NCBI GenBank assembly: GCA_963815115.1
Contig: CAWFFN010000012.1
Coordinates: 256,001 to 320,000, forward strand
Length of the DNA stretch: 64,000 nucleotides
Source: an uncultured delta proteobacterium
GTDB taxonomy: Bacteria; Desulfobacterota; Binatia; DP-6
Direction of reading: 5' to 3'
Shown here piece after piece: positions 1 to 18,398 of this stretch. Both the position numbers and the translations under genes were made by a program. The stretch's first letter is position 1. Every line of letters starts with the position of its first letter. The notes beneath the pieces were generated by a model, which saw only the letters and a program-made list of their open reading frames with translations, ran no database searches and was not told where the DNA came from.

Positions 1-269
1 CGGACGGTGACGCGGCCGAGGTGGCGATCCGTGACGATGGCCCCGGCATCCCGCCCGAGGTGATCGGTCGGATCTTCGATCCCTTCTTCACCACCAAGGA
101 CGTCGGCGGTGGCACCGGGCTCGGCCTCGCCATCAGCCACGGCATCGTCGCGGCGCACGGCGGACGGATCGACGTCGAGAGCAAGCCGGGCGCCGGCACC
201 ACCGTCCGCATCCGGCTGCCCATCGCCCAGGGCAAGTCGCTTGACAGCGTCGCGAGCGGAGGAAGATAG
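1..269 (+). CDS. Sensor histidine kinase, C-terminal HATPase_c domain (5'-truncated by window)
   Basis: G1/F/G2 boxes '[27 protein letters not shown]'; directly upstream of a response regulator. Confidence 0.93.
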
Positions 270-279
270 AGGGCCGCGC

Positions 280-1686
<1,407 letters not shown>

Positions 1687-3020
1687 AGCCGCGCGGCCGG
1701 CCCACGATCAGGCTGGTGGTGTTGCCTCCGAAGCCGTGCGTGGTGATGAGCGCCGTGTGCAGCGGCGCGCGCCGCTCGGTGTGACGGACGACGTCGAGCC
1801 GGCACTCGGCGTCGGGCTGGTCGCAGTTCGTGGTGGGTGCAACCACACCGTCGCGCAGCGCGAGCAGCGCGGCGGTCGTCTGCAGGACGCCGGCCGCCGC
1901 CAGCGCGTGGCCGAGCGCGCCCTTGATGGACGTGACGGCGGGACGGCGGGCGCAACCGTCGAAGAGCGCGCTCAGCGCGCGCATCTCGGCGAGGTCCGTC
2001 ATCGGAGCGCCCGGGGCATGCGCGCTGACGTGGTCGACGTCGGCGGCAGTCCGGCCCGCGTCGTCGAGCGCCGCGGCCGCCGCCAGCAGGAAGCCGCGAC
2101 CCGAGGGATCCGTCTCGCCGACGTACGTCGGCCGATCCCGTCCGCAGCCGAACCCGAGCAGCTCGCCGTAGACGTTCGCGCCGCGCCGGACCGCCTGCTC
2201 GTATTCCTCGATGACGAGCATCGCCGACGCCTCGCCCAGCACGAGGCCGGCGCGATCGCGGTCGAACGGCCGTGAGGCGCTCCAGGGGCGCTCGTTGTCG
2301 TGCGCCAGGACGCCCGAGCGCGCGAAGCCGGCGAAGAGGAGAGGGGTGATGGGCGCGTCGGCGCCGCCTACCAGCGCGACGTCGAGCTCGCCGGCGCGAA
2401 TCTGCCTCGCCGCCGCGACGACGGCATCCGCTCCGGCCGGACACTCGGAGCTGAGCGTGACGATCGGCCCGGTGATGCCGAAGTCGCTCGCGGCCATGGC
2501 CGAGGCCGAGTGGGGCGAGGCGACGAACGGGAAGGTACGCGGCACGCTGCCGGGACCGTGCTGGCGGAAGAGCGCGCCGTGGTCCTCCTCGACCTGCGCG
2601 GCGCCAGCCGAGGTTCCCAGGAAGAATCCGGCACGCGGCGAGGCGAGCGAATCGCTGCCGAGGCGCGCGTCGTCCACCGCCAGCCGGGAGGCGGCGATGG
2701 TGAGCTGACAGAATCGGCCAGCGGTGCGGGCCTTCAGGGCGGTCATGAACCGGCGCGGCCGGAACTCGGGGATCTGGGCTGCGATGCGAACGGGATACTC
2801 GCGCACGTCGAAGCGGCTGACCGGACGGACGGCGGACTCGCCGCGGCGGAGCATGGTCCACAATGCGTCCGCGCCGATTCCGGACGGTGCCACCACGCCC
2901 AGACCCGTGACCACGACTCGCCGCCTGCTGATTCGCTCGCTTGCTGGCGTTCTGTTAGCTAGCGAGCGCCTAGCTAGCCAGCGCTCCTGTAAGCTTGGAT
3001 CCATCTTGCGTCCTGCGCCG

Positions 3021-3036
3021 TGCAAGGGCTGTGCCC
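3021..3036 (-). promoter_or_regulatory. Sigma54 (-24/-12) promoter facing the ketosynthase
   Basis: Minus strand reads GGGCACAGCCCTTGCA, i.e. GGCAC-N5-TTGCA with exact GG-N10-GC spacing. Confidence 0.75.
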
Positions 3037-3076
3037 TGGGGACGACCCAGCGATGGCGGCAATGGCGCGTGCTGGC

Positions 3077-3220
3077 TGGGAACCGGGGTTCCTCCAGGCG
3101 CGCCGCCGTGCGCCCGGGTGTTCTCAGATCGCAAGGCCGGCGACTTGCTCGCCTGGCGGCGGGCGCCGGGGGTGGGAACCGCCGTGCACGGTGGGAGGAA
3201 CCTGGGAACCACGGTTCCCA
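3077..3220. promoter_or_regulatory. Candidate enhancer (UAS) boxes for a sigma54 activator
   Basis: TGGGAACC-GG-GGTTCCTC (3077-3094), perfect TGGGAACC-AC-GGTTCCCA (3203-3220), half-sites TGGGAACC (3173-3180) and GAGGAACC (3195-3202), lying between two divergent sigma54 promoters. Confidence 0.65.
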
Positions 3221-3271
3221 TGTGGGGCCGAATGAAGCCCGAATCCTCCATCCCCCGGACCCCGTCGGGGA

Positions 3272-3287
3272 CGGCACGGCCGTTGCT
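3272..3287 (+). promoter_or_regulatory. Sigma54 (-24/-12) promoter facing a non-coding hairpin
   Basis: CGGCACGGCCGTTGCT matches YGGCACG-N4-TTGCW. Confidence 0.78.
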
Positions 3288-3297
3288 GAAATCGACC

Positions 3298-3428
3298 GTC
3301 AGGACAGCGCCCGTCGCGAAGCCTGTCCGGGAAGACAAAACGAGCCGCCCCCGGCCCGTTCCCTCCCCGGATTTTCCCGGACAGGCTTCGGGGCGGGTGC
3401 GCCGGCGGACGGGGCTCACGCCCTGAGC
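3298..3428 (+). ncRNA. Putative sigma54-dependent small RNA (long hairpin with C/U-rich loop)
   Basis: Perfect 17-bp inverted repeat 3317-3333/3374-3390, extended by 3307-3315/3392-3400 with G-U pairs valid only on the + strand; no ATG until 3433; ends estimated. Confidence 0.55.
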
Positions 3429-4231
3429 TACGATGGGTGAGGCGCCTCCGCCTGGCAGCACTCGCGGCGGGGGGCGCGGGCGACGCCGATGCGACCGTCC
3501 TCGGCCTGCACCGCGACCAGCACGTCGGCGCAGCGCCAGTGGATCTGGACGTTGTAGCGGCGTTCCCCGCGCTGGCGGACGTCGCCGGTGGTGCCGCCCT
3601 CGTGCTGGCGCAGCGTGGGGCAGTCGATGCTCTCGAGCACCTGGCGCGCCACCTCGGACGCGTCCGCCGAGAACGTCGCCAGGTCGAGCCGGCGCCACTC
3701 GAAGAAGAGCCACACGCAGCTCACCATGACCCCCAGGGGAACCGCCGTGAGCAACCTACCGAGCACGGGGCGACGATCGCGCAGCGACCACCACGAGGAC
3801 CGTGTCAGCTCGAAGGCGCTGAAGGTGTTGAACAGTCCCCGGCCCAGGAAGACGAAGGCGTACAGCCCGAGGCGCGAGTTCGGCCCCCAGTCGAGACGTT
3901 CGCTCCAGTCGAAGAGCTGGTAGACGTAGCGGGCGGGCGTCACGTGGATCCAGTCCGGCCCGATCGTCTTGAAGGTGGCGACGAGGAGCAGGCCGGACAG
4001 CGCCTTCGCGACGGCGATCCAGGGCACCGCAGGCGTGTCGCGCACGAAAGCCCAGAGAAACCACGCCTGCAGCGCGACGTACCCGAGCACGAAGAGGAGC
4101 GAGTCGTGATGCTCGAGGCGGTAGGCGGGGATGAGCAGCAGCGATCCCAGCACCGCCAGCGCGCTCAGCAGCGTCACTGCCGTGCCGAGGGCGTTCAGGA
4201 CGAGCAGCGCGCGACGCATCGGGCGCGTCAT
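3428..4231 (-). CDS. Hypothetical multi-pass membrane protein with Cys-containing C-terminal domain
   Basis: About 5 hydrophobic segments, typical high-GC codon use; start at 4231 or 4219. Confidence 0.7.
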   Translation of the reverse strand: MTRPMRRALLVLNALGTAVTLLSALAVLGSLLLIPAYRLEHHDSLLFVLGYVALQAWFLWAFVRDTPAVPWIAVAKALSGLLLVATFKTIGPDWIHVTPARYVYQLFDWSERLDWGPNSRLGLYAFVFLGRGLFNTFSAFELTRSSWWSLRDRRPVLGRLLTAVPLGVMVSCVWLFFEWRRLDLATFSADASEVARQVLESIDCPTLRQHEGGTTGDVRQRGERRYNVQIHWRCADVLVAVQAEDGRIGVARAPRRECCQAEAPHPS

Positions 4232-6654: not shown

Positions 6655-7955
6655 TCAATCGGTCATGTGGGTCAGCGTGCGCAGCGAGAAGTAGTTCGGA
6701 TCCCAGTTCCGCTCGATGAACGAGGACTGGTAGCGGCCGCCCAGGGCAGCGCGGTTGGTCTTGTCGTTCACGCCGATCACGAAGTTGGGGTAGACCGCGG
6801 AGTAGGTCTCTCCGTCCTTGACGAAGTGGTAGCCGCAAGCGGCGGTGTAGAAGTACTCGCCGGCGCGGTTGTGCACCAGCTTCCAGTAGATGCGATAGAG
6901 ATCCTTGTCGAAGTACATGATCACCTTCCCGAAGTTGTAGTACGGGTCGGTCGACTGCCCCTCGACGATCCACACCTGTCGCGGCACGAAGACGACGTTG
7001 TCCTGCAGCCACCACGGGGCCCCCTTGCTGCCGGGCTTCTCGTACGTGGCCTGCTCGTACGGCGTCTCGACGGTGTAGCGCGACTTCGAGTCCGGCGAGG
7101 GCTTCATCGGGAAGGGATATGGCTGGACCACCGGGGCGAGGATGTTGCCCTCGCCGACCAGCTTCCACTGGTAGTACTCGACCTTCCCGGCGTAGCAGTT
7201 GAGGTCGTCGGCGAAGATGTCGAGCCCGGCGACGGGATCGGAGCGCGAGGCGGCGTTGATGCGGCGGGCGCGGCGCGTGCTCGGTACGTAGGCCCAGATG
7301 GCGTCCTGGCTGTCCCAGTCCCAGTACCGCTTCGTCAGGGTGGACACGCCCTCGACGTCCTGCGGCTCGATGGCGCCGCCGATGCCCTGCCCGGCGAGGT
7401 TGTCGGGATTGCTCTCGATCTTTCCGTCGCTGCGGCCCTGGTAGCCCATGGCATGGATGAACGCCTTCACGCGCCGGAATTCGCCGTTCGAGTCGACGCC
7501 GTTCAGCGTGAACGTGGCGCCTCCGCCGCCGCCCTGGGCGCCGGCGAAGTTGAAGTTCTGCGCGATCTTGCACGCCGCCAGCGGATCGCTCTTGTCGATC
7601 TTCGCGAACGGCAGGCCGTAGACGAAGTCGGGATCTTCCCCGTGGCCTTGTCCTTCAGCCCGCAATTCTTCGGCTCGATGTCGTACTTGCCCTCGTTGGC
7701 CGCCGTCGCGTCCCAGAACTTCTTCGAGTAGTTGTCCTTGAACTTGGCGGGATCCACCGGCACGACCTTGAACCAGTACTGCCCGTCCTTCAGGCGCTTC
7801 AGCACGGGGTCGGGCAGCAGGTCTTTCCCCTCTTGCCAGTTGTTGGCATCGAGCACCCACGGCTGATCGTCGCTCGCCGCATGCGCAGCCGGTAGCGCGG
7901 CCAGGCAGACCGTGGCGGCCAGGGCCAGCGCCGGGATGCGGAACGTGTTCGTCAT
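6655..7955 (-). pseudogene. DUF1329-family (LolA-like periplasmic) protein, frameshifted near 7630
   Basis: Signal-peptide ORF from ATG 7955 (SD GAGGAGG) runs to '..KATGKIP' and continues in another frame as 'DFVYGLPF..WAYVPSTRRARR..DPYYNFGK'; one inserted base restores a single ~430-aa ORF. Confidence 0.8.
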
Positions 7956-8011
7956 GAGACCTCCTCGAACTCTGGGAAGCATACCTGATTCGCCCCGGCG
8001 CCGTCTTCTTG

Positions 8012-8545
8012 TCAAGGTGTTGCCGTGGCTCCTCGAGCCGAACGGAGCTTGTCGAGTTCCCAACGGAGCAGCGAGCCGATGAGCAGCACGTCGGCCGCTC
8101 CGAACCGCCGCGCATAGACCCCGGTCCAGGCCGGGTTCCGGTTGCCGATGTCTAGGGCAAGCAGCTCGCGGCCCGTGTCATCCAGCACTCGCAGACGCTC
8201 CGGAGCCGGCGCGAGGCCGTACTCTGCGAGGTCGCCGTCGTTCACTGCGGCAACGGGGCGAGGGTGCAGCGACGCGAGCGCGTCGAGCGCAGCCTCGACG
8301 ACGTCGGTGGGCCACCGTTGACCCGCCGCGTCGACCCAACCAGCCGGGGTGCGCACGAGTGTGAGACGGTCCGCGCCGCGCTCCCATTCGACGCGCGCCA
8401 CCTTCGCGATCTCGGTATCGAGCAGCGGTGAGCCCTCGGGCAGCGGAGGCGGCGCGCTCGGGACCAGCGGACCTCCCGCGAGGAACGTGAAGGTGGCCAG
8501 GGCCGTTGCGATGAGCACGAGGACGGCCGTGCCGCGGACGGTCAC
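8012..8545 (-). CDS. DUF4340-like membrane-anchored periplasmic protein
   Basis: N-terminal TM, 'DLAEYGL', 'LDIGNRNP..GVYAR'; follows GldG-like gene with a GTGA overlap. Confidence 0.75.
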   Translation of the reverse strand: MTVRGTAVLVLIATALATFTFLAGGPLVPSAPPPLPEGSPLLDTEIAKVARVEWERGADRLTLVRTPAGWVDAAGQRWPTDVVEAALDALASLHPRPVAAVNDGDLAEYGLAPAPERLRVLDDTGRELLALDIGNRNPAWTGVYARRFGAADVLLIGSLLRWELDKLRSARGATATP

Positions 8546-9885
8546 GCGGTCCGTCTCCGGCGCAACGCAACGACGACCGCACCTGCCGCGAACAGCGCGG
8601 CGGGCAGCACGCATGCCGCCCAGAACACGGCCCGTGCCTCGCGCGCCGTGAGCACGAGTGTGGAGAACGGTCCGGAGTTTCTGGGCTGCCGGCGGGCCGC
8701 GGTCATGGCGTCCTGCGCGCGCGCGGCCAGCTCCGCCGCCACCAGCAGGAGGTCGCGATTGCCGAGCACGCCGAGATGAAGGTTGCTGATGAAGCCGGCG
8801 TCGCCGATCACCACCAGCCGTCCCTCGCGTCCTTCGGACCCGGGCACGCGTGCGATCGCGCCGACGGGCAGTGGCCCGCTCCGATCCGTCCCGGCGCGGA
8901 AGGAGCGCGACGATCCGGCGGGGCGACCACCGGTGTCGGCCCACGTCGTCTCGTCGGTCACCGCCAGGTACTCGGCATCGACGCCGGGGCGCTCCTCGAG
9001 ACGGATCGACTGGGCCAGCGGCAGCAGCGCGCTCGACGCGGGGGGGTCGGGCACGAGCTTCGGGTTCCAGTGCGCGATGCGTGCGGACAGGCCGTCGGCG
9101 CCGAAGAGGCGAGCGCCCTCGTCGACCACCACGTCGCGCTCCAGGATCATGCCGAAGCGCTCGAGCAGGCCCGCCACCGACTTCGGCGTCCCGGTATCCA
9201 CTAGGGCGAGCAGGCGGCCGCCGCCGCGCACGTAGGCGTCGAGCGCGTCCACCTCCGCCGGCGCCAGCTCGTGGGTCGGCCCGGCGAGCACGACCAGCCC
9301 CGCCTCGTCGGGGATGCGGGCGGCACCGGTCAGCACGCGGACGTCGAAGCCGTCGCCGGCGAGCGCCGCCGCGGCGTCGGCGGCCCCGGCACGGCCGTCG
9401 CCGTCGTGCACGTCCGGCTCACCGTGGCCCTGCACGACGTAGGCGATCGCCGTCTTCCGTCCCGCCACCGTCAGGAGCGCCTCGGTGACCGTGTCCTCGT
9501 TCACCGGGTCGACGCGCTCTCGCCGGTCTCCCGATTCCAGGACCAGCACGTTGTAGTTGCTGACGCCGAGGCGCTCGGCCTCGCCCGGGCTGCGATCGAG
9601 GTCGAGCAGGCGTACGGTGAGCGCGGGCTGCACGTCGCCGTAGAGCGCCAGGAGATCCGCGATCTGCTTGCGGGTGCCCTGGTCCTGGCCGGAGGCGAAG
9701 GCGGTCGCGGTGACCGGGTCACGGAGGCGTGACAGCACCTGACGGGTGTGGGGCGAGAGGGTGAGGCCGCCGTCCGGAGTGAGATCGAAGCGCAGCGGAT
9801 GGCGGCCGGCCAGAACCAGCAGGCTCGCGAGGATGGACGCGACCGCGAGGGCCTGCGCCCCGAGCAACACGAGCGGCCGGATCAA
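8542..9885 (-). CDS. GldG-like ABC transporter auxiliary component
   Basis: 'RFDLT....TLS..T', 'GHGE', 'LVVLAGP', 'GRLVVIGD..F.SN', N- and C-terminal TMs; TTG start overlaps upstream stop. Confidence 0.85.
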   Translation of the reverse strand: MIRPLVLLGAQALAVASILASLLVLAGRHPLRFDLTPDGGLTLSPHTRQVLSRLRDPVTATAFASGQDQGTRKQIADLLALYGDVQPALTVRLLDLDRSPGEAERLGVSNYNVLVLESGDRRERVDPVNEDTVTEALLTVAGRKTAIAYVVQGHGEPDVHDGDGRAGAADAAAALAGDGFDVRVLTGAARIPDEAGLVVLAGPTHELAPAEVDALDAYVRGGGRLLALVDTGTPKSVAGLLERFGMILERDVVVDEGARLFGADGLSARIAHWNPKLVPDPPASSALLPLAQSIRLEERPGVDAEYLAVTDETTWADTGGRPAGSSRSFRAGTDRSGPLPVGAIARVPGSEGREGRLVVIGDAGFISNLHLGVLGNRDLLLVAAELAARAQDAMTAARRQPRNSGPFSTLVLTAREARAVFWAACVLPAALFAAGAVVVALRRRRTA

Positions 9886-10625
9886 GAGACGCCCCGCCAG
9901 CTCCGCGCCCCCAGCGCACGCAGGCCGAGGAACAGGAAGAGGACGACGAAGGCGAGGAAGTAGGCCACGTCGCGGCTGTCGATGACGCCCTGGGCGAAGC
10001 CGTAGAAGCGGTCGAAGAGCGACAGGGCCACGACCACGGGCGCGAGGCGCTCGCTGAGCGCGGCCTCGTTCCAGGCGAGGTACCACGACAGCACCAGCAC
10101 GCCGTAGGTGAGGAGCGCGCTCACGCCCTGGCTGTCGGTGACCGATGACGCCGCCAGGCCGCAGGCGATGAACGCCGCCCCGAGCAGCACCATGCCGACG
10201 TACCCGGCCACCAGCGGCCCGGGCGGGAAGGGATGCGTCATCGACAGCGTCAGCGGGCCGATGAGCGTCGGCAGCTGCATCAGGGTGTACGCCGCCAGGG
10301 CGGCGAGGAACTTGCCCGCCACCACCTCGCCGTCGCGCACGGGGAAGGTCCACAGCAGCTCCAGCGTGCCCAGCTTCCGCTCCTCGGCGAACAGCCGCAT
10401 GGTGACCAGCGGCACCACCAGCATCGCCACCATGCGGTAGTCGAGGAAGACGTAGCGCCACAGGCCGGTGGCCAGGTTGGCGCCTCCGAAGAGCACGTAG
10501 AAGGTGAGGTCGCTGTAGAAGAAGTAGCCGGTGAGCATCGTGAAGACCGCACCGAGCACCCAGAAGAGCGGGCCGCCGAACATGGAGGCCAGCTCGCGAC
10601 GGGCGATCACGAGCGTCTTCCTCAC
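9882..10625 (-). CDS. ABC-2 type permease (GldF-like)
   Basis: 'IARREL', 'TMRLFAEERKLGTLELL.T.PV', 'GKFLA', six TMs. Confidence 0.9.
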   Translation of the reverse strand: MRKTLVIARRELASMFGGPLFWVLGAVFTMLTGYFFYSDLTFYVLFGGANLATGLWRYVFLDYRMVAMLVVPLVTMRLFAEERKLGTLELLWTFPVRDGEVVAGKFLAALAAYTLMQLPTLIGPLTLSMTHPFPPGPLVAGYVGMVLLGAAFIACGLAASSVTDSQGVSALLTYGVLVLSWYLAWNEAALSERLAPVVVALSLFDRFYGFAQGVIDSRDVAYFLAFVVLFLFLGLRALGARSWRGVS

Positions 10626-11569
10626 GCCGCGTCCTCGGGCGCGGTCACCAGCGCCAGGAAGGCGTCCTCGAGCGAGGTTTCCATCGGCGCGAGGCCGTGG
10701 AGCGGCCATCCCGCTTGCGCCACCGCCGCGGCCAGGGCCGCGCGCAGATCCGCGCCGCGCTCGGTCTCGACGCGACAGCGCGCGTGTCCGCCCGCGGCGG
10801 GAAGCCGCTCGACGCTCCGCACGCCGGGTACGGCGGCGAGCGTGGTCTCGAGGGCATCGCCGGGTGCGCCGGCCTCGACCTCGACGGCCACGCCGGGACG
10901 GAGCCGACCGGCCAGATCGGCAGGCGTGCCCTCGGCGAGCACGCCGCCGTGGTGCAGGACGATCACCCGGTCGCACAGGCTCTCCACGTCGATCAGCACG
11001 TGGCTGGAGACGAAGACGGCATGGTCGCTCCCCAGCCTGCGGATCAGCTGCCGCATCTCCGCGCTCTGGCCCGGGTCCATGCCGGCGATCGGCTCGTCGA
11101 GCAGCAGCGCCGGCGGGTCGCCCACCAGCGCGATGGCGAGTCCGACGCGCTGCCGGGTGCCGCGCGACAGGATGCCGATGCGCCGGTCGGCCAGCGACTC
11201 GAGCCCGGTGCGCGCGAGCGCGTCGGCGATCGCCGCCGTCCGTGCGCCGCCCGCCGGCACGTCGCGCAGCGCGGCCGCGTAGCCGAGCTCGGCGCGCACC
11301 GTCATCTCGCCGTGGAGCGCGGGGTGCTCGGGGGCGTAGCCGATGCGCCGCCGCGCCTCGAGCGGCGCCGTCGCGAGGTCGAGGCCGTCGACCAGCGCCT
11401 GGCCCGAAGAGGGCGGGAAGACGCCCGCCAGGATGCGGAGCGTGGTCGTCTTGCCGGCGCCGTTCGGTCCCAGGAACCCCACCACTTCTCCGCGCCCGAC
11501 CCGAAGCGAGACGTTCCGGATGGCCGTGCGGCGGCCGAAGCGTTTTGCGAGGTTCCTGGCCTCGATCAC
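10622..11569 (-). CDS. ABC transporter ATP-binding protein (GldA-like)
   Basis: Walker A 'GPNGAGKTT', signature 'LSRG', Walker B 'LLLDEP', 'SSH'. Confidence 0.93.
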   Translation of the reverse strand: MIEARNLAKRFGRRTAIRNVSLRVGRGEVVGFLGPNGAGKTTTLRILAGVFPPSSGQALVDGLDLATAPLEARRRIGYAPEHPALHGEMTVRAELGYAAALRDVPAGGARTAAIADALARTGLESLADRRIGILSRGTRQRVGLAIALVGDPPALLLDEPIAGMDPGQSAEMRQLIRRLGSDHAVFVSSHVLIDVESLCDRVIVLHHGGVLAEGTPADLAGRLRPGVAVEVEAGAPGDALETTLAAVPGVRSVERLPAAGGHARCRVETERGADLRAALAAAVAQAGWPLHGLAPMETSLEDAFLALVTAPEDAA

Positions 11570-14124
11570 CCGACAGCCAGCCGCACCGGTTGCTGCTCGC
11601 CGACGGCTCTGACCCGGCGCTCCGAGAGGAAGCGCGGCCGGACCACCTTGACCCACGCCGGCACGAGCACGAGGCCGCCGAAGGTGTTGAATATCATCAG
11701 GAGCGCCAGCAGCAGCCCCATCTCGGCCTGGAACTTCAGGTTCGAGAACCACCAGAACATGGTGCCCGCCAGCATGGTGGTGGCGGTGAAGATGATGGCC
11801 TTGCCGGTGGTCGCGGTCGCATAGTCGACCGCGTCGTCGATGTCGCGGCCCTCGTCCACGGCGTCGATCATGCGACTGAAGTGATAGATGCCGTAGTCCA
11901 CGCCGACGCCCGCACCCGCCGCCGCGATGGGCAGCGAGTTGACGTTGAGGTCGATGTGCCAGAGCCACATGAAGGCCTCGCAGGCGAGCTGCGAGAGCAC
12001 GACCGGGATCATGAGCAGCAACGTCGCCACCAGCGAGCCGTAGGTGAAGTAGAGACAGCACGCCACGGCGAACATCACCATCGCCAGCGTCGTCCAGTAC
12101 GAATCCTCGACCGCCTCGTTCACGGCCGCGAGGACACCGTAGAGGCCGCCCGCGAGCAGGAAATGCATGTTGTCGCTCGAGTGCTGCGCCGCCCAGTGCT
12201 TCGCGCTGTCGATGGCATTCATGATGATGTCGTGCGAGTAGCCGTGGAACAGCGTGATCACGGTGCCATAGCGGAAGTCCGACGATACGAAGCGGTCGAG
12301 GTCGCCCGGCGCGGACGTCTGGGTGAACTGGTAGAACAGCTCGGCGATGTACTTCTGCTTGTCGGGGATGAAGGCCCACTTGGGCTCGCCCTCGTGGAAG
12401 AGCCGCGAGAGCTGCTTCATGATGTCGACGATCGTCACCGACGCGCCGGCGCCCTCGACCGATTCCATGTGGTCGGCCAGCTCCTCCATGGTGGTGAGCG
12501 GCACCACGTCCTTCATGCCGCCTTCCTTGCCGGTGTCGGCGATGACGACGAGCGTGTTGGCGCCCTCGAACTTCTCGTTCAGCTTGGCGTAGGCCACGTT
12601 GTACGGGTGGTCCGGAAACAGCAGCGCCGCTCCCGGCGTCATGTCCCCGACCTTGAGGCGCCAGCCGAAGAACGGACAGACGAGGTAGAGAGCGACGGTG
12701 AGCCACACGCCGGCCCAGCGGCGCCAGCCGTTGCTGGCCGCGATGGTCCACTCGGTGAGCTTCCGGTAGATCACCTCGTGCCAGCGGTAGAGGGCGAGGG
12801 CGATCGCGATCATGATCCCGGTGCGCCACCAGCCGAGGAGCCGGTGCGCGATGTCGAGCGCGTAGACGGCGAAGACGAGCGCCGTGGCGGCGAGCACGGC
12901 GCGGCCGAGCCAGCGCGCCCACTCGGGAGCGTCGCTCTTCACCCCGGGCGGGTTCGTCACCGAGAGGATGATCGGGTGCAACGTCACCACGCTGACGATG
13001 ATCGAGACGATCCAGAAGCTCGAGAAGATCGCGCACTTCTGGATGAGCGGGATGGGGGCGATGGAGACCAGCAGGATCCCGATGCCGTCGCTCAGGACCG
13101 ACGCGATGGCCGGCGGGAAGAGGTGAGAGTACGACTCGACGATCGCCGTGTGCCGGTCGCCGGTGCGGTGGTACTCCTCGTGGTAGCGGTCCATCGACTG
13201 CACCGAGTGCGAGAGGGCGCGCGCCGAGAGGAAGATCGGAATCACCAGCACCAGCGGGTCGAGGTTGAGCCCCAGCAGAGGCACCATGCCGAGCGCCCAG
13301 ACGCTGGAGAGGATGCCGGAGAAGATCGGCACCCAGACGCCCGGCCAGCTCCGGAAGTAGTTCCAGAGCAGGAACGTGAGCGCGGCGACGGTGATGACGA
13401 ACACCTCGCCCACCTCCGGCACGTAGCGCTGGATCGAGGTGTACAGCCAGGGGAAGCCCGCGACGTAGACGGTGTGGTTGTCGTCCTCGAGCTGCTGTTT
13501 GAGGGTGGTGATACGGTCGTAGAGGTAGTTGAAGTCGAGCTCTTCCTCCCAGAAGCCCGCCGTCACGAGCGCCGCGGTGTCGTCCTCCGACACGTAGATG
13601 CCGCGGATGCCCTTGGTCGAGTACACGGCGAACTTGACGCGCTGGGCGTCCTCCATCGTCTGCGGGACGGTCGGGTAGAACACCTCGCGGATCTGGATCG
13701 CCCCCTGGGCATTGGTGATGCTCTTCATCTTCGGGTGCGCGATGGAGAGGATCTGATACGGCACCACGCCCTTGGTCTCGACCAGCGCCTTCGTGGCCTG
13801 GTCGATCTTCTGGAGCGTCGTCGGGTTGTAGATGTCACCGTGCTTGGTCTCGATCACCAGCGTGAGCACGTTGGCGCTCCCGAACATGCGCCGGAACTCG
13901 TTGTAGATCTTGATGTAGGGATGCCCCTCGCGCAGCGTGATCTCGTGGCCGAGGACACTGATCTTGAGTGGCCCGGGGTAGAAGTCGAGGAACTGCGGGA
14001 GCACCTTGATGTGGGTGCACTGGAGAGCGAAGAAGATCGTCATCGCGGCGGTGATGATCGTCACCACCAGCCGGTTGCGGAGCAGGAAGCGGAGATAGGC
14101 GGCGATCCAGCGCTTGGGAATCAT
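11566..14124 (-). CDS. RND/MMPL family transporter
   Basis: Two repeats of TM + large periplasmic loop + 5 TMs; 'GVGVDYGIY', 'TTGKAI', 'LKFQAEMG'. Confidence 0.9.
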   Translation of the reverse strand: MIPKRWIAAYLRFLLRNRLVVTIITAAMTIFFALQCTHIKVLPQFLDFYPGPLKISVLGHEITLREGHPYIKIYNEFRRMFGSANVLTLVIETKHGDIYNPTTLQKIDQATKALVETKGVVPYQILSIAHPKMKSITNAQGAIQIREVFYPTVPQTMEDAQRVKFAVYSTKGIRGIYVSEDDTAALVTAGFWEEELDFNYLYDRITTLKQQLEDDNHTVYVAGFPWLYTSIQRYVPEVGEVFVITVAALTFLLWNYFRSWPGVWVPIFSGILSSVWALGMVPLLGLNLDPLVLVIPIFLSARALSHSVQSMDRYHEEYHRTGDRHTAIVESYSHLFPPAIASVLSDGIGILLVSIAPIPLIQKCAIFSSFWIVSIIVSVVTLHPIILSVTNPPGVKSDAPEWARWLGRAVLAATALVFAVYALDIAHRLLGWWRTGIMIAIALALYRWHEVIYRKLTEWTIAASNGWRRWAGVWLTVALYLVCPFFGWRLKVGDMTPGAALLFPDHPYNVAYAKLNEKFEGANTLVVIADTGKEGGMKDVVPLTTMEELADHMESVEGAGASVTIVDIMKQLSRLFHEGEPKWAFIPDKQKYIAELFYQFTQTSAPGDLDRFVSSDFRYGTVITLFHGYSHDIIMNAIDSAKHWAAQHSSDNMHFLLAGGLYGVLAAVNEAVEDSYWTTLAMVMFAVACCLYFTYGSLVATLLLMIPVVLSQLACEAFMWLWHIDLNVNSLPIAAAGAGVGVDYGIYHFSRMIDAVDEGRDIDDAVDYATATTGKAIIFTATTMLAGTMFWWFSNLKFQAEMGLLLALLMIFNTFGGLVLVPAWVKVVRPRFLSERRVRAVGEQQPVRLAVG

Positions 14125-15134
14125 GAAGTCCTCGTGGCGGACGCGGCGTGGGCGCCGAGCTGCTTCACGTTCGAGCCGTCGACGCGGAGGACGAGACCTT
14201 CCGAGCCCACGGCCAGCCCGTGGCCTCCGGGCGCGAGCCAGATGGAGCGGATCCAGTTGGCGGCGAACTGGAGCGGCAGCGGCTCGACCGCCCAGGTGGC
14301 GCCGCCGTCGGCGGTCTTGAGCACCGTGCCCTGATCGCCCACGATCCAGCCCTGCTGTCCGCGGACGAAGACGTCGAACAGCGAGCGGCCCTGAACCGGC
14401 GGCGGGACGGGGGACCAGGTGGCGCCGCCGTTCTCGGTGCGCAGGATGACCGAGTCGAGACCGACGGCGATGCCGTGCTGCGGGTCGCTGAACCGCACGC
14501 CGAAGAGCGTGCTCTCCACCGGCGTGGTCTGCTGGTGCCAGGTACGACCGCCGTCCTGGCTCGCGAGGACGACGCCGAACTCCCCGACCTGCCAGGCGTG
14601 ATCGGCGTCGCCGAAGCTGAGGCCGTAGAGGTTGACGTCGCCGGGCTCCACCCCGGTGTCGAGCGCGCTCTCCGGCAGCTTGACGTCCTCCCCGACCCGC
14701 GTCGCCGTCCAGGTGGCGCCGCCGTCCTCGGTGTGGATCATGGTGCCGAAGTCGCCGGCGCCATGGCCGCGCTGCGCGGTGGGAAACTCGAGCGCGAAGA
14801 CGTGGCGCTGCGAGCCGGTGTTCTGCTGTGTCCAGGTGGCGCCGGCATCCTTGGTGGCATAGACGACGCCTTCCTTGCCGGCGATCCAGGCCGTCTTGGC
14901 GTCGAGGCAGCTCATGGCGAGGAAGGGGCGCTTGGTGTGCGCGTCCTGCTGCTCCCAGGTGACGCCGCCGTCGCGGGTGCGGAAGATGCGTCCCAGCTCG
15001 CCCACCATCCACCCTTCCTGATCGCTCGGGAAGCAGGTGGCGAAGAGGTTCTGGTGGACGTCGGCCAGGTCGACCGGCGCCGCCCAGGCACCCGCCGCGC
15101 AGGCGACGGCGAGCGCGGCGACGACGACTTTCAT
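14121..15134 (-). CDS. YCF48-like / BNR-repeat beta-propeller protein
   Basis: Signal peptide; repeated 'T.DGG.TW' motifs and 'VGE.G'; SD GAGGAGG. Confidence 0.9.
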   Translation of the reverse strand: MKVVVAALAVACAAGAWAAPVDLADVHQNLFATCFPSDQEGWMVGELGRIFRTRDGGVTWEQQDAHTKRPFLAMSCLDAKTAWIAGKEGVVYATKDAGATWTQQNTGSQRHVFALEFPTAQRGHGAGDFGTMIHTEDGGATWTATRVGEDVKLPESALDTGVEPGDVNLYGLSFGDADHAWQVGEFGVVLASQDGGRTWHQQTTPVESTLFGVRFSDPQHGIAVGLDSVILRTENGGATWSPVPPPVQGRSLFDVFVRGQQGWIVGDQGTVLKTADGGATWAVEPLPLQFAANWIRSIWLAPGGHGLAVGSEGLVLRVDGSNVKQLGAHAASATRTS

Positions 15135-15204
15135 GCGGACCCTCCTCGATGCTCGGGCACGGCCCGTGCAGATCTCGAGATTGTACCGCACGGTCAGTTC
15201 CGGC

Positions 15205-15234
15205 CTTTACCCGCGGGCGGGGGAAAGTGTCAAC
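15205..15234 (-). promoter_or_regulatory. Sigma70-like internal promoter upstream of YCF48 gene
   Basis: Minus strand TTGACA-N18-TAAAGG in a 150-bp gap. Confidence 0.45.
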
Positions 15235-15285
15235 GGCGTGCTGCGTCAGACGACACGATCCGAACCCCTGCCGGACCTCAGCCGG

Positions 15286-17139
15286 TCAGAAGACGTACTC
15301 GACCTGGAAGCGAAGGTTGTCCTTGTCGCGCACGGCACCGAACTGCTGCGCCGCCACCGACTGGACCGCCGTGTAGTCCATGGTGACCCGGAACGGGTCG
15401 CGAACGTAGGTGACGCCGGGCTGGAAGACCATGCCGCCGACCCAGTCGTAGAACATGCCGAAGGACGGCACGATGCGTCCTCCGGAATACGACGTGGTGA
15501 TGAGGAGCGTCTGGAGGATCTCGTTGTCCTTGAGCGGGTAGAAGCGCGGACTGAGCTGACATGCGCGACGATTGTTCTTCGGCCCGCAGCTGTTGCCGAG
15601 GAGAATGATGTCCTTGTTCACCGGGAGATTCCGATATGGCGTCGGCAGCACGAGATCCCCGGGGGAATCGAAGATGTGCTTGTAGAAGAGCTGCGTCGAG
15701 AAGAAGAACGTCTGGGTCGGGTTCAGCCACCGGATGAAGCGGTTCACGTCCAGGCCGACCGACATGTTGAAGCTGTTCAGCGTCAGCACCTGTCCAAAGT
15801 ACGGCTTGGTGCGGGTCAGATCCAGGAAGCGCGGGTAGACGAAGGGGTTGACGCCGCCATCGGTGTTGTCTGCCGCACGCAGCCGCCTCGTCCCGGGAGT
15901 GTTCGGTCCGGCGGTGGAATCGCCGGTGTCGCCCACGCCCTGGCGGCTGAACGGCTGGTGCGCGAAGTACGCGATCTCCGAGCGCACGATGGTGTAGAGC
16001 GACGGGATCGGGAACGTCGCCGAGCCGCCGGTGATGGCGACGCGGGGGAAGCGCTGGTAGGCCAGGATCGGGTTCTGGAAGCTCGGAGTCGGTCCGATCG
16101 TGGTGCCGTTCGGGAGCGTGCGCAGCCCGGGTATGCGAAACTGCGTTCCCGGGACGTCGAGGTAGGTGTAGTAGTGCGCCAGCGTCCAGGTGACGTCCTT
16201 GGCGGTGAACACCAGCCGACCGCCGCCCCGGACGTCGGTCCCGGAGGGCGCGGCGATGATCTGGCGGACCGCCGGGTTCGGGAAGCCGATGCCGCCCGGG
16301 ATCCACGTCGAGCCGGGCGGGATGCCCGGATCCGTGGCGACCTTGTCGCCCTGGGCGACGAATCCCTCCGCGAAGGCGTCCTGGAAGGGGCCGTAGGAGC
16401 CGATTTGCCAGCTCGCGCGCACCATTCCGACCGGCACGCGGCGCTCGTCGAGCGCGATGAAGAAGCCGCCGAAGCTGTCGTCGAGCGGGTTGATGTTGTC
16501 GAGCAGGCGGAAGACGTCCGTCTCGCCCCAGGCGAGCACCTGCCTGCCGATACGGACGAAGAGAGGGCCCTTCTCGAAGTCGAGGTAGGCGAGAAACAAA
16601 CGGTAGCGCTGCTGGGCGTTGCGCAGCAGGCGGTCGACGCGGTCCTTGATGAACGGCTCCGTCAGCTTGGGGGAGAGCCCGAGGGGCTTGAACGTCGGCA
16701 CGTCGAGTCGCGTTCTGCGCAGGCCGGCGGCTTGCTCGCTGTACTCGTTCGGACCCCACTGGTAGAGCCCCTCGCCCTCGCCGCGGAACTCCAGGGTGTA
16801 GCGCAGCGAGGTGGGGTTGATCAGCCGGAAGGGCGCGAGGAGGCCCCGGCTCTGGTTCGCCAGGCGGGTGAGGTCGTGGTCCCAGTGGATCTGGAGGAAA
16901 AAGCGATCCTGTCGCAGATGGCCGACACCCGAGACCGGGTAGTTGAGCGGGTTGTCGTCGTTCCCGATCTCGTTCGTGCCGACGCGTACCGCCGTGTATG
17001 CCCGCAGGCCGAGCCGCATCTCGCCCCGGTCGTCCAGGGTGAGCGCCGAGCTCGACCGGGTGCCGGACAGCACCGCGAGCGCGGTGAGCGCCACCGTCAG
17101 GAGTCGTCCCTTGAGCCGCCTGGCCAGGACCGTCGTCAT
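15286..17139 (-). CDS. DUF1302-family outer-membrane protein
   Basis: Signal peptide, 'RIGRQVLAWGETDVFRLLDNINP', C-terminal beta-signal 'FQVEYVF'; context with YCF48/RND/DUF1329. Confidence 0.85.
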   Translation of the reverse strand: MTTVLARRLKGRLLTVALTALAVLSGTRSSSALTLDDRGEMRLGLRAYTAVRVGTNEIGNDDNPLNYPVSGVGHLRQDRFFLQIHWDHDLTRLANQSRGLLAPFRLINPTSLRYTLEFRGEGEGLYQWGPNEYSEQAAGLRRTRLDVPTFKPLGLSPKLTEPFIKDRVDRLLRNAQQRYRLFLAYLDFEKGPLFVRIGRQVLAWGETDVFRLLDNINPLDDSFGGFFIALDERRVPVGMVRASWQIGSYGPFQDAFAEGFVAQGDKVATDPGIPPGSTWIPGGIGFPNPAVRQIIAAPSGTDVRGGGRLVFTAKDVTWTLAHYYTYLDVPGTQFRIPGLRTLPNGTTIGPTPSFQNPILAYQRFPRVAITGGSATFPIPSLYTIVRSEIAYFAHQPFSRQGVGDTGDSTAGPNTPGTRRLRAADNTDGGVNPFVYPRFLDLTRTKPYFGQVLTLNSFNMSVGLDVNRFIRWLNPTQTFFFSTQLFYKHIFDSPGDLVLPTPYRNLPVNKDIILLGNSCGPKNNRRACQLSPRFYPLKDNEILQTLLITTSYSGGRIVPSFGMFYDWVGGMVFQPGVTYVRDPFRVTMDYTAVQSVAAQQFGAVRDKDNLRFQVEYVF

Positions 17140-17191
17140 TCCCCCACCTCCGACGAAGGCGGATGAGCCGCGCTGTTTGTAAGGCCGCGGC

Positions 17192-17221
17192 GTTATAAGA
17201 AAGCGCGCACGAAGGTGTCAA
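17192..17221 (-). promoter_or_regulatory. Sigma70 promoter of the DUF1302 operon
   Basis: Minus strand TTGACA-N18-TATAAC. Confidence 0.65.
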
Positions 17222-17263
17222 GAACGTCGGCTCGGCAGGCGCGCCCGGAGCGCGCGAACGGCC

Positions 17264-18295
17264 TCACCAGGCGCGCGTCTCGCCGATCGCCGGGGTCCAG
17301 ATACGCGCCGCGTCGATGCCGCGGCGCGCTGCCTCTGCGTGGAACCGGCGGGGCGGCTCGTCGAGCGGCTCGTCGGTCAGGTCGAAGGTGCCGTAGTGGA
17401 TGCCGAGCATGCGCCGGGCGCCCACGTCGACGCCGGCCTGCAGCGCCTCTTCGGGATTGAGATGCACCGGCTGCATCATCGCAGGCGGGTCGTAGGCGCC
17501 GATCGGCAACGCCGCCAGGTCGAAGGGGCCGAGGCGCGCCCGGATGTCGGCGAAGGAGCGCGTGGAGCCGGTGTCGCCGGCGAAGTAGAAGCGGTGCGTC
17601 GGCCCCACCGCGACCCAGCCCGACCAGAGCGACCGGTTCATGTCGCTCAGCCCGCGCTGGCTCCAGTGGCGAGCCGGCACGCAGGTGATGGTCACGCCGC
17701 CGACCACGCGGGACTCCCACCAGTCGAGCTCGTCGACCGGCCCGATCCCCTCGTCGCGCAGCAGCTCGGCGACGCGAAGCGGCACGAAGAAGCGGGTGCC
17801 GCGTGCGGCCAGCGCCCGCAGGGTCGGGAGGTCGAGATGGTCGTAGTGGCTGTGCGAGATCAGCACCGCGTCGACGGGGGGCAGCGCCGCCAGCGGCATG
17901 GGCGGCGGGACGAAGCGGCGCGGACCGAGGAACGACACCGGGCTCGCCGTGGACGACCAGATGGGATCGGTGAGCAGGGTCACGTGGTCCATCTGCACCA
18001 GCACGCTGGCGTGGCCCATCCAGGTGACGCTGGGGGCGCTGTGGCGCGCGTTGTCGCGCAGCCAGGCGCCGTCGTTGGCCGCGACGGGCGGCGCACCCGG
18101 GCGCGCGAAGAACGCCCCGACGGCGCGGCGCAGGAAGAAGGGCACGGTGACCAGCGGTCCGGCGCGCTGCCAGGGCTCCAGGTTGCGGAACCCGCCGTCG
18201 ACGTGATGCGGCTGATCCTCCATCGCCATGGCCGTCCCCGTCAGCGCGCAGAGGGCGATCGCCACGACGCTCCGCGCCAGATGCCCGACGTGCAC
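17264..18295 (-). CDS. MBL-fold metallo-hydrolase (NAPE-PLD/RomA-like)
   Basis: 'TWMGHAS', 'TDPIWS', 'SHSHYDHLD', 'PARHWS', 'FAGDTG', 'LPIGAY', 'IHYGTF'. Confidence 0.9.
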   Translation of the reverse strand: MHVGHLARSVVAIALCALTGTAMAMEDQPHHVDGGFRNLEPWQRAGPLVTVPFFLRRAVGAFFARPGAPPVAANDGAWLRDNARHSAPSVTWMGHASVLVQMDHVTLLTDPIWSSTASPVSFLGPRRFVPPPMPLAALPPVDAVLISHSHYDHLDLPTLRALAARGTRFFVPLRVAELLRDEGIGPVDELDWWESRVVGGVTITCVPARHWSQRGLSDMNRSLWSGWVAVGPTHRFYFAGDTGSTRSFADIRARLGPFDLAALPIGAYDPPAMMQPVHLNPEEALQAGVDVGARRMLGIHYGTFDLTDEPLDEPPRRFHAEAARRGIDAARIWTPAIGETRAW

Positions 18296-18398
18296 GGCCA
18301 GGAGCTAGCCGCTCCGCGCCGCCGTGTCACCCGGTCGCGGGTGCGGGCGGTTCCTGCGGCGCCGGGGTTGCTCGCGAGGGCGCTGCTCCGGAGCGCGA

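What the first reader, a model, noticed from the sequence alone, without database searches (positions are those of the whole stretch)
3298..3428. Probable novel sigma54-driven small RNA with an anti-SD-like loop
Seen: the + strand promoter has no credible protein gene to drive, because the next gene is convergent. The transcript would fold into a ~28-bp stem (17 perfect pairs). Three G-U pairs work only on the + strand, which argues for RNA-level selection on that strand. The ~35-nt loop holds GUUCCCUCCCC. Known: sigma54 sRNAs exist (Qrr, GlmY, CrcZ), and C/U-rich loops pair with SD sequences. Speculative: GGGGAGGGA upstream of 41738 and GGGGAGG upstream of 54476 are complementary to the loop.
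Basis: partly seen in the sequence, partly recalled or inferred. Interest (0 to 1): 0.72.

Follow-up and report, generated by a model that had tools for sequence, protein, structure and literature searches.

The report
New sigma54-driven hairpin RNA in Binatia
A single-copy hairpin RNA with an almost unchanging C-rich loop sits behind a conserved sigma-54 promoter in uncultured soil Binatia bacteria and probably acts as a small regulatory RNA, though no transcript has yet been seen.

Summary
Window 3307-3402 folds into a ~28-bp hairpin. It starts about 20 nt after a sigma54-type promoter, GGCACGGCCGTTGCT, at 3273-3287.

It is not a repeat: a covariance model finds one copy per genome in 9 of 25 genomes of the family, which record titles name as Candidatus Binatia. 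No Rfam family matches.

Twenty full or nearly full homologues keep the stem: 98.2% of cells are paired and 9 of 33 pairs show compensatory changes. G-U pairs outnumber A-C pairs 31 to 6, which favours the + strand. The core loop is 93% identical, against 31% in the flanks.

15 of 19 homologues with upstream sequence carry the sigma54 promoter. The other four lie just after the stop codon of a sigma54-driven FeeM-MMPL operon.

Best reading: a new sigma54-dependent regulatory RNA acting through its loop. Best target candidate: an 18-nt perfect complement in the sigma54-driven 5'UTR of a 2682-aa surface protein gene, conserved in three of five species of the genus. Transcription is not shown.

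The parts
109..1686 (+). NtrC-type sigma54 activator gene (receiver domain + AAA+ sigma54-interaction domain + Fis-type HTH); the start codon is uncertain
   Evidence: Pfam Sigma54_activat 4.2e-67, Response_reg, HTH_8. The same gene order HK-EBP-KAS(-)-hairpin is seen in G003.
1640..3004 (-). Beta-ketoacyl synthase gene, divergent from the RNA; ATG at 3004 with a conserved M-[DE]-P N-terminus
   Evidence: Pfam ketoacyl-synt 1.2e-45; translations.
3021..3035 (-). Second sigma54-type promoter, GGCACAGCCCTTGCA, facing the KAS gene; only 16 nt lie between TTGCA and the ATG
   Evidence: Conserved in G001, G002 and G003.
3078..3093 (.). Imperfect palindrome GGGAACCGGGGTTCCT, a likely activator site near the KAS promoter
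   Evidence: Read. Homologous TGGGAAC-N4-GTTCCCA is conserved in four other genomes of the genus.
3204..3219 (.). Perfect palindrome GGGAACCACGGTTCCC, a likely activator (UAS) site centred about 86 nt upstream of the predicted RNA start
   Evidence: It is the only GGGAAC-N4-GTTCCC in the 6.9-Mb genome. Conserved in the genus together with the following CATGTG..CGAATGA. The same architecture drives FeeM genes in G018.
3273..3287 (+). Sigma54-type promoter GGCACGGCCGTTGCT (-24 GG, -12 GC); predicted start near 3297-3299
   Evidence: GGCAC[GA]-N4-GTTGCT is present in 15 of 19 homologues with upstream sequence. The start position is inferred from the usual sigma54 spacing (textbook knowledge) and was not measured.
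3298..3410 (+). Predicted minimal RNA; the 3' end is undefined
   Evidence: Covariance-model match 3300-3410, 105.4 bits. Sequence conservation stops at both stem ends. No U-tract or conserved downstream hairpin.
3307..3402 (+). Long hairpin: arms 3307-3335 and 3374-3402
   Evidence: Fold. 98.2% of cells paired, 9 of 33 pairs with changes on both sides, 0 of 500 shuffles as high. G-U 31 cells against A-C 6 cells.
3338..3371 (+). Conserved apical loop AAACGAGCCGCCCCCGGCCCGTTCCCTCCCCGGA, including an invariant mini-hairpin GCCG-CCCC-CGGC (within 3340-3359)
   Evidence: Invariant in all five genomes of the genus. Core-loop pairwise identity 93% against 81-82% in the stems and 31% in the flanks.
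3353..3370 (+). GGCCCGTTCCCTCCCCGG: the loop stretch with an 18-nt perfect complement in the 5'UTR of the G000 C7 surface-protein gene; the CUCCCC part is predicted to be unpaired
   Evidence: duplex -43.8 kcal/mol; opening costs 12.4 and 11.2.
3428..4231 (-). Convergent gene for a 267-aa membrane protein with no Pfam family (protein X); it stops 26 nt beyond the hairpin
   Evidence: It is the neighbour in 4 of 8 genomes examined and is replaced by Lnt or a histidine kinase gene in the others.

Best explanation
The region encodes a previously undescribed small regulatory RNA of Candidatus Binatia, at least about 105 nt long.

Inferred circuit. A neighbouring two-component pair, a GAF histidine kinase and an NtrC-type activator, binds GGGAAC-N4-GTTCCC palindromes in a 240-bp divergent control region. 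From there it fires two sigma54 promoters. One faces a ketoacyl synthase gene. The other makes this RNA, which starts a few bases before a 25-28-bp stem.

Inferred action. The stem presents a ~38-nt apical region made of an invariant mini-hairpin and an exposed C/U-rich stretch (CGUUCCCUCCCCGG). That stretch most likely pairs with G-rich mRNA segments without Hfq. The best candidate target is an 18-nt perfect complement about 145 nt upstream of the start codon, in the sigma54-driven 5'UTR of a 2682-aa multidomain surface protein gene.

Related genera. In two related genera the same RNA is the 3' end of a sigma54-driven FeeM (N-acyl amino acid synthase)-MMPL operon. The stand-alone gene in this genus therefore looks like a 3'UTR element that kept its promoter after the coding part was lost.

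Shown by comparison: the structure, the strand bias, the single-copy state and the promoter linkage.
Inferred only: transcription, the RNA ends, the activator, the pairing and its outcome.
For: Structure.
- -83.4 kcal/mol, z -5.5.
- Across 19 distinct sequences, 98.2% of cells are paired and 9 of 33 pairs have changes on both sides. The covariation score is 0.240 against 0.131 in shuffles, with 0 of 500 shuffles as high. Slid controls give 28-49% paired.

Strand.
- G-U 31 cells at 13 pairs against A-C 6 cells at 4 pairs, among 528 cells in 16 distinct rows (after correcting a counting-key collision by hand).

Selection.
- Core loop 93% identity, stems 81-82%, flanks 31%.

Copy number and spread.
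- One locus in the own genome.
- One locus per genome in 9 of 25 family genomes: genus g1 5 of 5, g2 3 of 3, g3 1 of 1, and the 11 other genera 0 of 16 genomes.

Promoter.
- GGCAC[GA]-N4-GTTGCT in 15 of 19 homologues.
- The other 4 follow an MMPL stop codon in operons that have their own GGCAC-N5-TTGCA promoter.
- rpoN is present and the activator gene lies next door.
- The palindrome is unique in the genome.

Non-coding.
- 2-nt indels in the loop.

Target candidate.
- It is the only complement of 17 nt or more in 6.9 Mb apart from the element itself.
- It lies behind GGCACACGCCTTGCT.
- CCGGGGAGGGAA is the best-conserved UTR island in G000, G001, G003 and a G002 locus.
- The 18-bp duplex gives -43.8 kcal/mol against opening costs of 12.4 and 11.2.

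Chaperones.
- No Hfq and no CsrA were found in a genome rated 100% complete.
Against: - No transcript is shown. The only RNA-library contigs are at 2x depth and run upstream over the promoter, which does not fit a start near 3298 and could be carried-over DNA.
- No 3' end signal: there is no U-tract and no conserved downstream hairpin.
- The promoter motif alone is at chance frequency.
- An 18-mer this G+C-rich is expected roughly 0.1 times per genome by my own composition estimate, which no tool computed.
- The G002 orthologue of the surface-protein gene lacks the complement.
- G004 (89% complete) shows neither the gene nor the complement.
- The g2 and g3 genomes have no orthologue and no long complement, yet they keep the loop. 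This pairing therefore cannot be the function that conserves it.
- The complement is not at the ribosome-binding site.
- The loop contains GTTCCC, one half-site of the DNA palindrome, so a DNA-level reading is not excluded.
Confidence: 0.55

Rival explanations
1. It is a 3'-end element, a terminator or stabilising stem-loop, of the FeeM-MMPL operon. The copy in this genus is a promoter-plus-terminator remnant left after the coding genes were deleted, and it also terminates the convergent gene.
For: - In G005, G006, G018 and G023 the hairpin begins 0-12 nt after the MMPL stop codon.
- The g2 FeeM promoters share the UAS/CGAATG/GGCAYG-N4-GTTGCT architecture of this RNA's promoter.
- FeeM is absent or below cut-off in 4 of 5 genomes of this genus.
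- The hairpin lies between convergent genes.
Against: - Terminator loops are not conserved, but here the loop (93%) is better kept than the stem.
- The promoter and hairpin stay intact and adjacent in 15 homologues while the flanks fall to 31% identity. A dead remnant would decay.
- There is no U-tract.
- The convergent gene differs among genomes and lies 5 to about 380 nt away.
Confidence: 0.2
2. It is an RNA that works by binding a protein (a decoy or a recognition hairpin), not by pairing with mRNAs.
For: - An invariant mini-hairpin GCCG-CCCC-CGGC and 34 invariant loop bases across the genus fit protein recognition.
- The loop is kept in g2 and g3, where no long complement was found.
Against: - There is no repeated motif of the kind CsrB-type decoys carry, and no CsrA or Hfq gene was found.
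- No candidate binding protein is linked to it.
- The 18-nt complement conserved in three species is unexplained by this reading.
Confidence: 0.12
3. It is a DNA-level element. The asymmetric site CCGGGGAGGGAACGGGCC would be a protein operator downstream of sigma54 promoters, and the flanking inverted repeat would be incidental or would form a cruciform.
For: - The same 18 bp occurs, in opposite orientations, 50-70 bp downstream of two sigma54 promoters.
- It contains the GGGAAC half-site of the activator palindrome.
Against: - A DNA site does not need a 25-bp stem kept by compensatory changes.
- The G-U over A-C bias of 31 to 6 is an RNA signature.
Confidence: 0.08
4. The sigma54 transcript reads on into the convergent membrane-protein gene and acts as a cis-antisense RNA against its 3' end.
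For: Protein X is the convergent neighbour in 4 of 8 genomes examined. Its C-terminal coding motif is seen downstream in at least 9 of 19 homologues, by my reading.
Against: - The neighbour is Lnt in G002 and G003 and a histidine kinase in G018 and G023, with the hairpin unchanged.
- Conservation ends at the stem.
Confidence: 0.05

Closest known systems
Qrr sRNAs of Vibrio (sigma54- and LuxO-dependent)
   Same: Sigma54 promoter; an NtrC-type response-regulator gene close by; no ORF; predicted trans pairing. The properties of Qrr are recalled. For LuxO I saw only the search listing and abstract starts of PMC4878744 and PMC11407668.
   Different: No Rfam match. One long hairpin instead of several stem-loops. 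No Hfq gene found. One copy per genome. A different phylum.
GlnZ, an sRNA released from the 3'UTR of the glnA mRNA
   Same: In four homologues the RNA is the 3' end of a sigma54-driven operon mRNA. Release of GlnZ from the glnA 3'UTR is from the title and abstract start of PMC9731577 (listing only). That glnA is sigma54-dependent is recalled.
   Different: In the window it has its own sigma54 promoter. No sequence or structure likeness. Processing is untested.
C-rich-loop sRNAs of Hfq-poor bacteria (6C RNA of Actinobacteria, RsaE/RoxS of Firmicutes)
   Same: An exposed C-rich loop predicted to pair with G-rich mRNA stretches, in a high-G+C genome without Hfq. The properties of these families are recalled.
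   Different: No Rfam match to either family. One loop of ~38 nt with an inner mini-hairpin. A sigma54 promoter.
mraW RNA motif (RF01746)
   Same: The best Rfam near-match; it is also a long hairpin.
   Different: 24.6 bits against a gathering score of 50. Only the stem aligns and the loop is skipped. There is no mraW gene context.

Membership tests
Any Rfam 15 family | Score at or above the family's gathering threshold | tested here: not met
   0 matches in the 64-kb window at gathering. Best in E-value mode: mraW at 24.6 bits against 50, then miRNA hairpins.
Sigma54-dependent sRNA (functional class) | Conserved -24 GG / -12 GC promoter directly upstream, with no ORF to drive | tested here: met
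   GGCAC[GA]-N4-GTTGCT in 15 of 19 homologues, 6-20 nt before the model match. The downstream gene is convergent. Frame-breaking indels.
Sigma54-dependent sRNA (functional class) | rpoN, an enhancer-binding protein and an upstream activator site are present | tested here: met
   rpoN at G000 C9. EBP gene at 109-1686. A unique palindrome about 86 nt upstream. That this EBP binds it is inferred.
Sigma54-dependent sRNA (functional class) | A discrete transcript starting at the sigma54 start site | tested here: inconclusive
   Four soil RNA runs hold only 2x-depth contigs. These also cover the promoter, and contigs cannot show RNA ends or strand.
Qrr family | Conserved Qrr sequence and multi-stem-loop structure; Hfq dependence | tested here: not met
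   No Rfam match. No Hfq gene found.
Intrinsic terminator | G+C-rich stem followed by a U-tract | tested here: not met
   0 terminator-like sites in 2800-3800. No T-run after the stem in any of 19 homologues.
REP / MITE repeat | Many copies per genome | tested here: not met
   One locus in G000. One locus per genome in the 9 positive genomes; each second hit is the opposite strand of the same place.
3'UTR-derived sRNA | Lies immediately after the stop codon of a co-oriented gene and shares its promoter | tested here: not met
   Not met in the window, where the RNA has its own promoter and the upstream gene is divergent. Met in G005, G006, G018 and G023.

The most novel reading that the evidence does not exclude
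The RNA is the output arm of a lipid-signal circuit analogous to the Vibrio LuxO-Qrr pathway. A signal made by FeeM-type N-acyl amino acid synthases or the ketoacyl synthase and exported by MMPL is sensed by GAF histidine kinases. It is relayed to a sigma54 activator and converted into an Hfq-independent sRNA. That sRNA kisses a hairpin in the 5'UTR of a second sigma54 transcript to control a 2682-aa adhesin-like protein. The family would also record a 3'UTR element becoming an independent sRNA gene through loss of the operon's coding part.
Probability: 0.12. Interest if true: 0.8.

Novelty: new member of a known kind. Interest (0 to 1): 0.52.

Why it matters
Binatia are uncultured, and my full-text search found no paper holding both 'Binatia' and 'small RNA'. 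This would be a first candidate regulatory RNA for the group. It comes with a clear control region (activator, palindrome, sigma54 promoter) and a testable target.

The two genomic layouts, a stand-alone gene and an operon 3' end, give a natural example of how an sRNA gene can arise from a 3'UTR.

The linkage to ketoacyl synthase, N-acyl amino acid synthase and MMPL genes hints at lipid-related signalling. That part is only context.

Tried and rejected
**Expression**
- The look-up of sequencing runs listed 20 runs holding part of the stretch, none with half of its words or more.
- Read laying on four RNA runs (X17 and X19 gave identical figures) gave only 151-205-nt contigs at about 2x depth. 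These also cover the promoter. There is no verdict on transcription.

- They do not stand out. A crude hybridisation-plus-opening energy gave +1.6 and +19.1 kcal/mol, against a random-window mean of 9.8 with sd 9.0.
- RNAduplex allowed very large interior loops there and, so I do not lean on those figures.

**SD-overlapping sites**
- A genome scan for complements of 10 nt or more just upstream of start codons gave about twenty plausible gene starts. That is too unspecific to rank.

**Compensatory target in g2/g3**
- None was found for the G018/G023 loop variant with up to 2 mismatches.
- I ran no G005- or G006-specific pattern beyond.

**Chance pattern matches**
- Sphingomonas and Streptomyces records, 2 of 9 genome hits, match the loop only.
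- L063, 1 of 13 metagenome hits, is coding sequence.
- L059 is a true copy cut by its contig end.

**Other**
- The idea that the C7 UTR is an inverted paralogue of the hairpin rests on shared CTGTCC/GGACAG flanks in G000 only. It is not kept in G001 or G003, so I dropped it.

Full report
**1. What is there**

The window is G+C-rich and lies in a 6.9-Mb, 12-contig genome rated 100% complete. Record titles of the related genomes name them Candidatus Binatia, delta proteobacterium or Thermodesulfobacteriota MAGs.

Gene order around the finding:
- an NtrC-type sigma54 activator gene (109-1686, +);
- a beta-ketoacyl synthase gene (1640-3004, -);
- a 420-bp intergenic region;
- a convergent gene for a 267-aa membrane protein with no Pfam family (3428-4231, -);
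- a short-chain dehydrogenase gene (+).

The intergenic region holds two divergent sigma54-type promoters. GGCACAGCCCTTGCA (3021-3035, -) faces the synthase gene. GGCACGGCCGTTGCT (3273-3287, +) faces nothing but the hairpin. Between them lie GGGAAC-N4-GTTCC(C/T) palindromes. The perfect one, at 3204-3219, is the only such site in the whole genome. rpoN is present.

**2. The hairpin**

- Window 3298-3428 folds at -83.4 kcal/mol (z -5.5). The reverse strand also folds well (z -4.4).
- It is single copy in its genome.
- BLAST found it in all four other genomes of the genus and in three genomes of other genera.
- A covariance model built from eight copies found it in 9 of 25 family genomes: g1 5 of 5, g2 3 of 3, g3 1 of 1, and the other eleven genera 0 of 16. 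Each positive genome has one locus.
- A loop pattern scan gave 7 true copies among 9 genome records and 12 among 13 metagenome records.
- On 19 distinct sequences, 98.2% of pair cells are standard pairs. 9 of 33 pairs changed on both sides. No shuffle of 500 reached the observed covariation score, and slid controls pair at 28-49%. The alignment is fitted to the model, which favours the structure somewhat. An independent MAFFT/RNAalifold run on eight copies gave the same stem.
- G-U pairs (31 cells, 13 pairs) outnumber A-C pairs (6 cells, 4 pairs, three of those cells at the outermost pair), so the + strand pairs better than the minus strand. The script double-counted one key, and I corrected the A-C total from its per-pair lines.
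- Mean pairwise identity is 93% in the core loop, 81-82% in the stem arms and 31% in the flanks.
- Two 2-nt indels in the loop rule out a conserved reading frame.
- Rfam has nothing at gathering. The best sub-threshold match is the stem of mraW RNA, at 24.6 bits against 50.

**3. Promoter linkage**

Of 19 homologues with upstream sequence, 15 have GGCAC[GA]-N4-GTTGCT ending 6-20 nt before the model match. The spacer and surroundings differ among them.

The other four (G005, G006, G018, G023) have the hairpin 0-12 nt after the stop codon of an MMPL transporter gene. That gene follows a FeeM-type N-acyl amino acid synthase gene, and the pair has its own GGCAC-N5-TTGCA promoter.

In G018 these FeeM promoters carry the same palindrome. 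One of them also has the same CGAATG box and GGCAYG-N4-GTTGCT as the RNA promoter in this genus. FeeM is over its cut-off in 17 of 25 family genomes. Within this genus it is missing in G000 and G001, below cut-off in G003 and G004, and elsewhere in the genome in G002.

I infer that the stand-alone gene arose when the coding part of such an operon was lost and the promoter and 3' hairpin were kept. Their continued conservation argues that the RNA has a function of its own.

**4. Is it just a terminator?**

There is no U-tract and no conserved downstream structure. The convergent neighbour is protein X in four genomes, Lnt in two and a histidine kinase in two, at distances of 5 to about 380 nt. 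Loop conservation exceeds stem conservation. A terminating or stabilising role is still possible in addition.

**5. How it may act**

- The predicted ensemble leaves CUCCCC unpaired.
- No Hfq or CsrA gene was found.
- A genome scan for complements to the loop gave one outstanding hit: 18 of 18 nt at G000 C7:1016418-1016435 (-). The next hits involving the C/U-rich part are 15 nt or shorter.
- This site lies about 50 nt downstream of another sigma54-type promoter (GGCACACGCCTTGCT). It is about 145 nt upstream of the start of a 2682-aa protein with GSDH, PKD, disintegrin-like, DUF4082, Big_2, DMFA2_C and He_PIG domains.
- The orthologous UTRs of G001 and G003 keep the promoter and the island CCGGGGAGGGAACG while neighbouring bases differ. 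A G002 locus behind GGCATGAGGCTTGCT, upstream of an alpha/beta hydrolase gene, has CCGGGGAGGGAATG.
- The 18-bp duplex is worth -43.8 kcal/mol against opening costs of 12.4 and 11.2.

Against this target:
- the G002 orthologue's UTR lacks the island;
- G004 shows neither the gene nor the island;
- g2 and g3 have no orthologue and no long complement;
- a G+C-rich 18-mer is not vanishingly rare, by my own rough estimate of about 0.1 per genome.

So the pairing is a good lead within this genus. It is not the reason the loop is conserved family-wide.

**6.

GGGGAGGGA before 41738 and GGGGAGG before 54476 are real. Such motifs occur 50 and 1165 times in the genome. The two sites do not stand out in a crude energy comparison. 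About twenty gene starts have complements of 10 nt or more over their SD. General SD masking is therefore possible but unspecific.

**7. Expression**

Public RNA runs from soil hold only short 2x-depth contigs. These include the promoter, so nothing can be concluded.

**8. Comparison and novelty**

The element works most like a sigma54-dependent sRNA (Qrr, GlmY and CrcZ, recalled). In four relatives it resembles a 3'UTR-borne sRNA such as GlnZ (PMC9731577, listing and abstract start only). Its C-rich loop recalls 6C and RsaE (recalled). It is a member of none of these families.

No paper in the library holds both 'Binatia' and 'small RNA'. The Binatota genome survey PMC8262859 was seen only as a listing. 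A search for N-acyl amino acid synthase, MMPL and sigma-54 together found nothing relevant.

I file the element as a new member of a known kind.

**9. Verdict**

| Claim | My odds |
|---|---|
| Conserved, structured, + strand RNA element | about 0.85 |
| Under sigma54 control | about 0.75 |
| Trans-acting, base-pairing regulator | about 0.5 |
| The surface-protein UTR is a true target | about 0.35 |

Noticed in passing
window 3002-3035 (- strand): The KAS gene's conserved ATG (M-[DE]-P start) lies only 14-16 nt after the TTGCA of its sigma54 promoter, in both G000 and G001. Its mRNA would therefore be nearly leaderless, which is unusual for a sigma54 transcript.
   Followed up: partly
window 3428-4231 (-): Protein X is a 267-aa membrane protein with a Cys-containing C-terminal domain. 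It has 92 homologues in metagenomes, none with a Pfam domain or an informative name. It is often the convergent neighbour of the hairpin.
   Followed up: partly
L069 (G018) 12437-18387; L068 (G006) 10086-16951: Related genera carry repeated modules of a FeeM-type N-acyl amino acid synthase gene divergent from a 7TM-GAF histidine kinase gene. The modules have sigma54 promoters and the same GGGAAC-N4-GTTCC palindromes. This may be a lipid-signal synthesis and sensing system.
   Followed up: partly
G000 C7:1008229-1016501 (L109 4229-12274, -): A 2682-aa multidomain protein gene (GSDH, PKD, disintegrin-like, 3x DUF4082, Big_2, DMFA2_C, He_PIG) with a sigma54-type promoter and a ~205-nt 5'UTR. Upstream of the promoter, CCATTC..AAGG..TTT is conserved in G000, G001 and G003, and ATGCACTGGCA is shared by G000 and G001.
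   Followed up: partly
window 3355-3362 versus 3204-3219: The loop contains CGTTCCC, which matches one half-site of the activator palindrome GGGAACC..GGTTCCC. This could be coincidence or a link between the DNA site and the RNA.
   Followed up: no
window 6658-17217: A cluster of DUF1329/LolA-like, MMPL and DUF1302 genes next to a metallo-beta-lactamase-fold gene. It resembles an envelope lipid or hydrophobic-compound export set.
   Followed up: no
L089 (G002 C4) about 1270-1600 (-): Behind GGCATGAGGCTTGCT, the loop-complement CCGGGGAGGGAATG is followed by a strong hairpin (GGCGGGTG...CACCCGCC) before an alpha/beta hydrolase gene. This may be a second small transcript or a leader.
   Followed up: no
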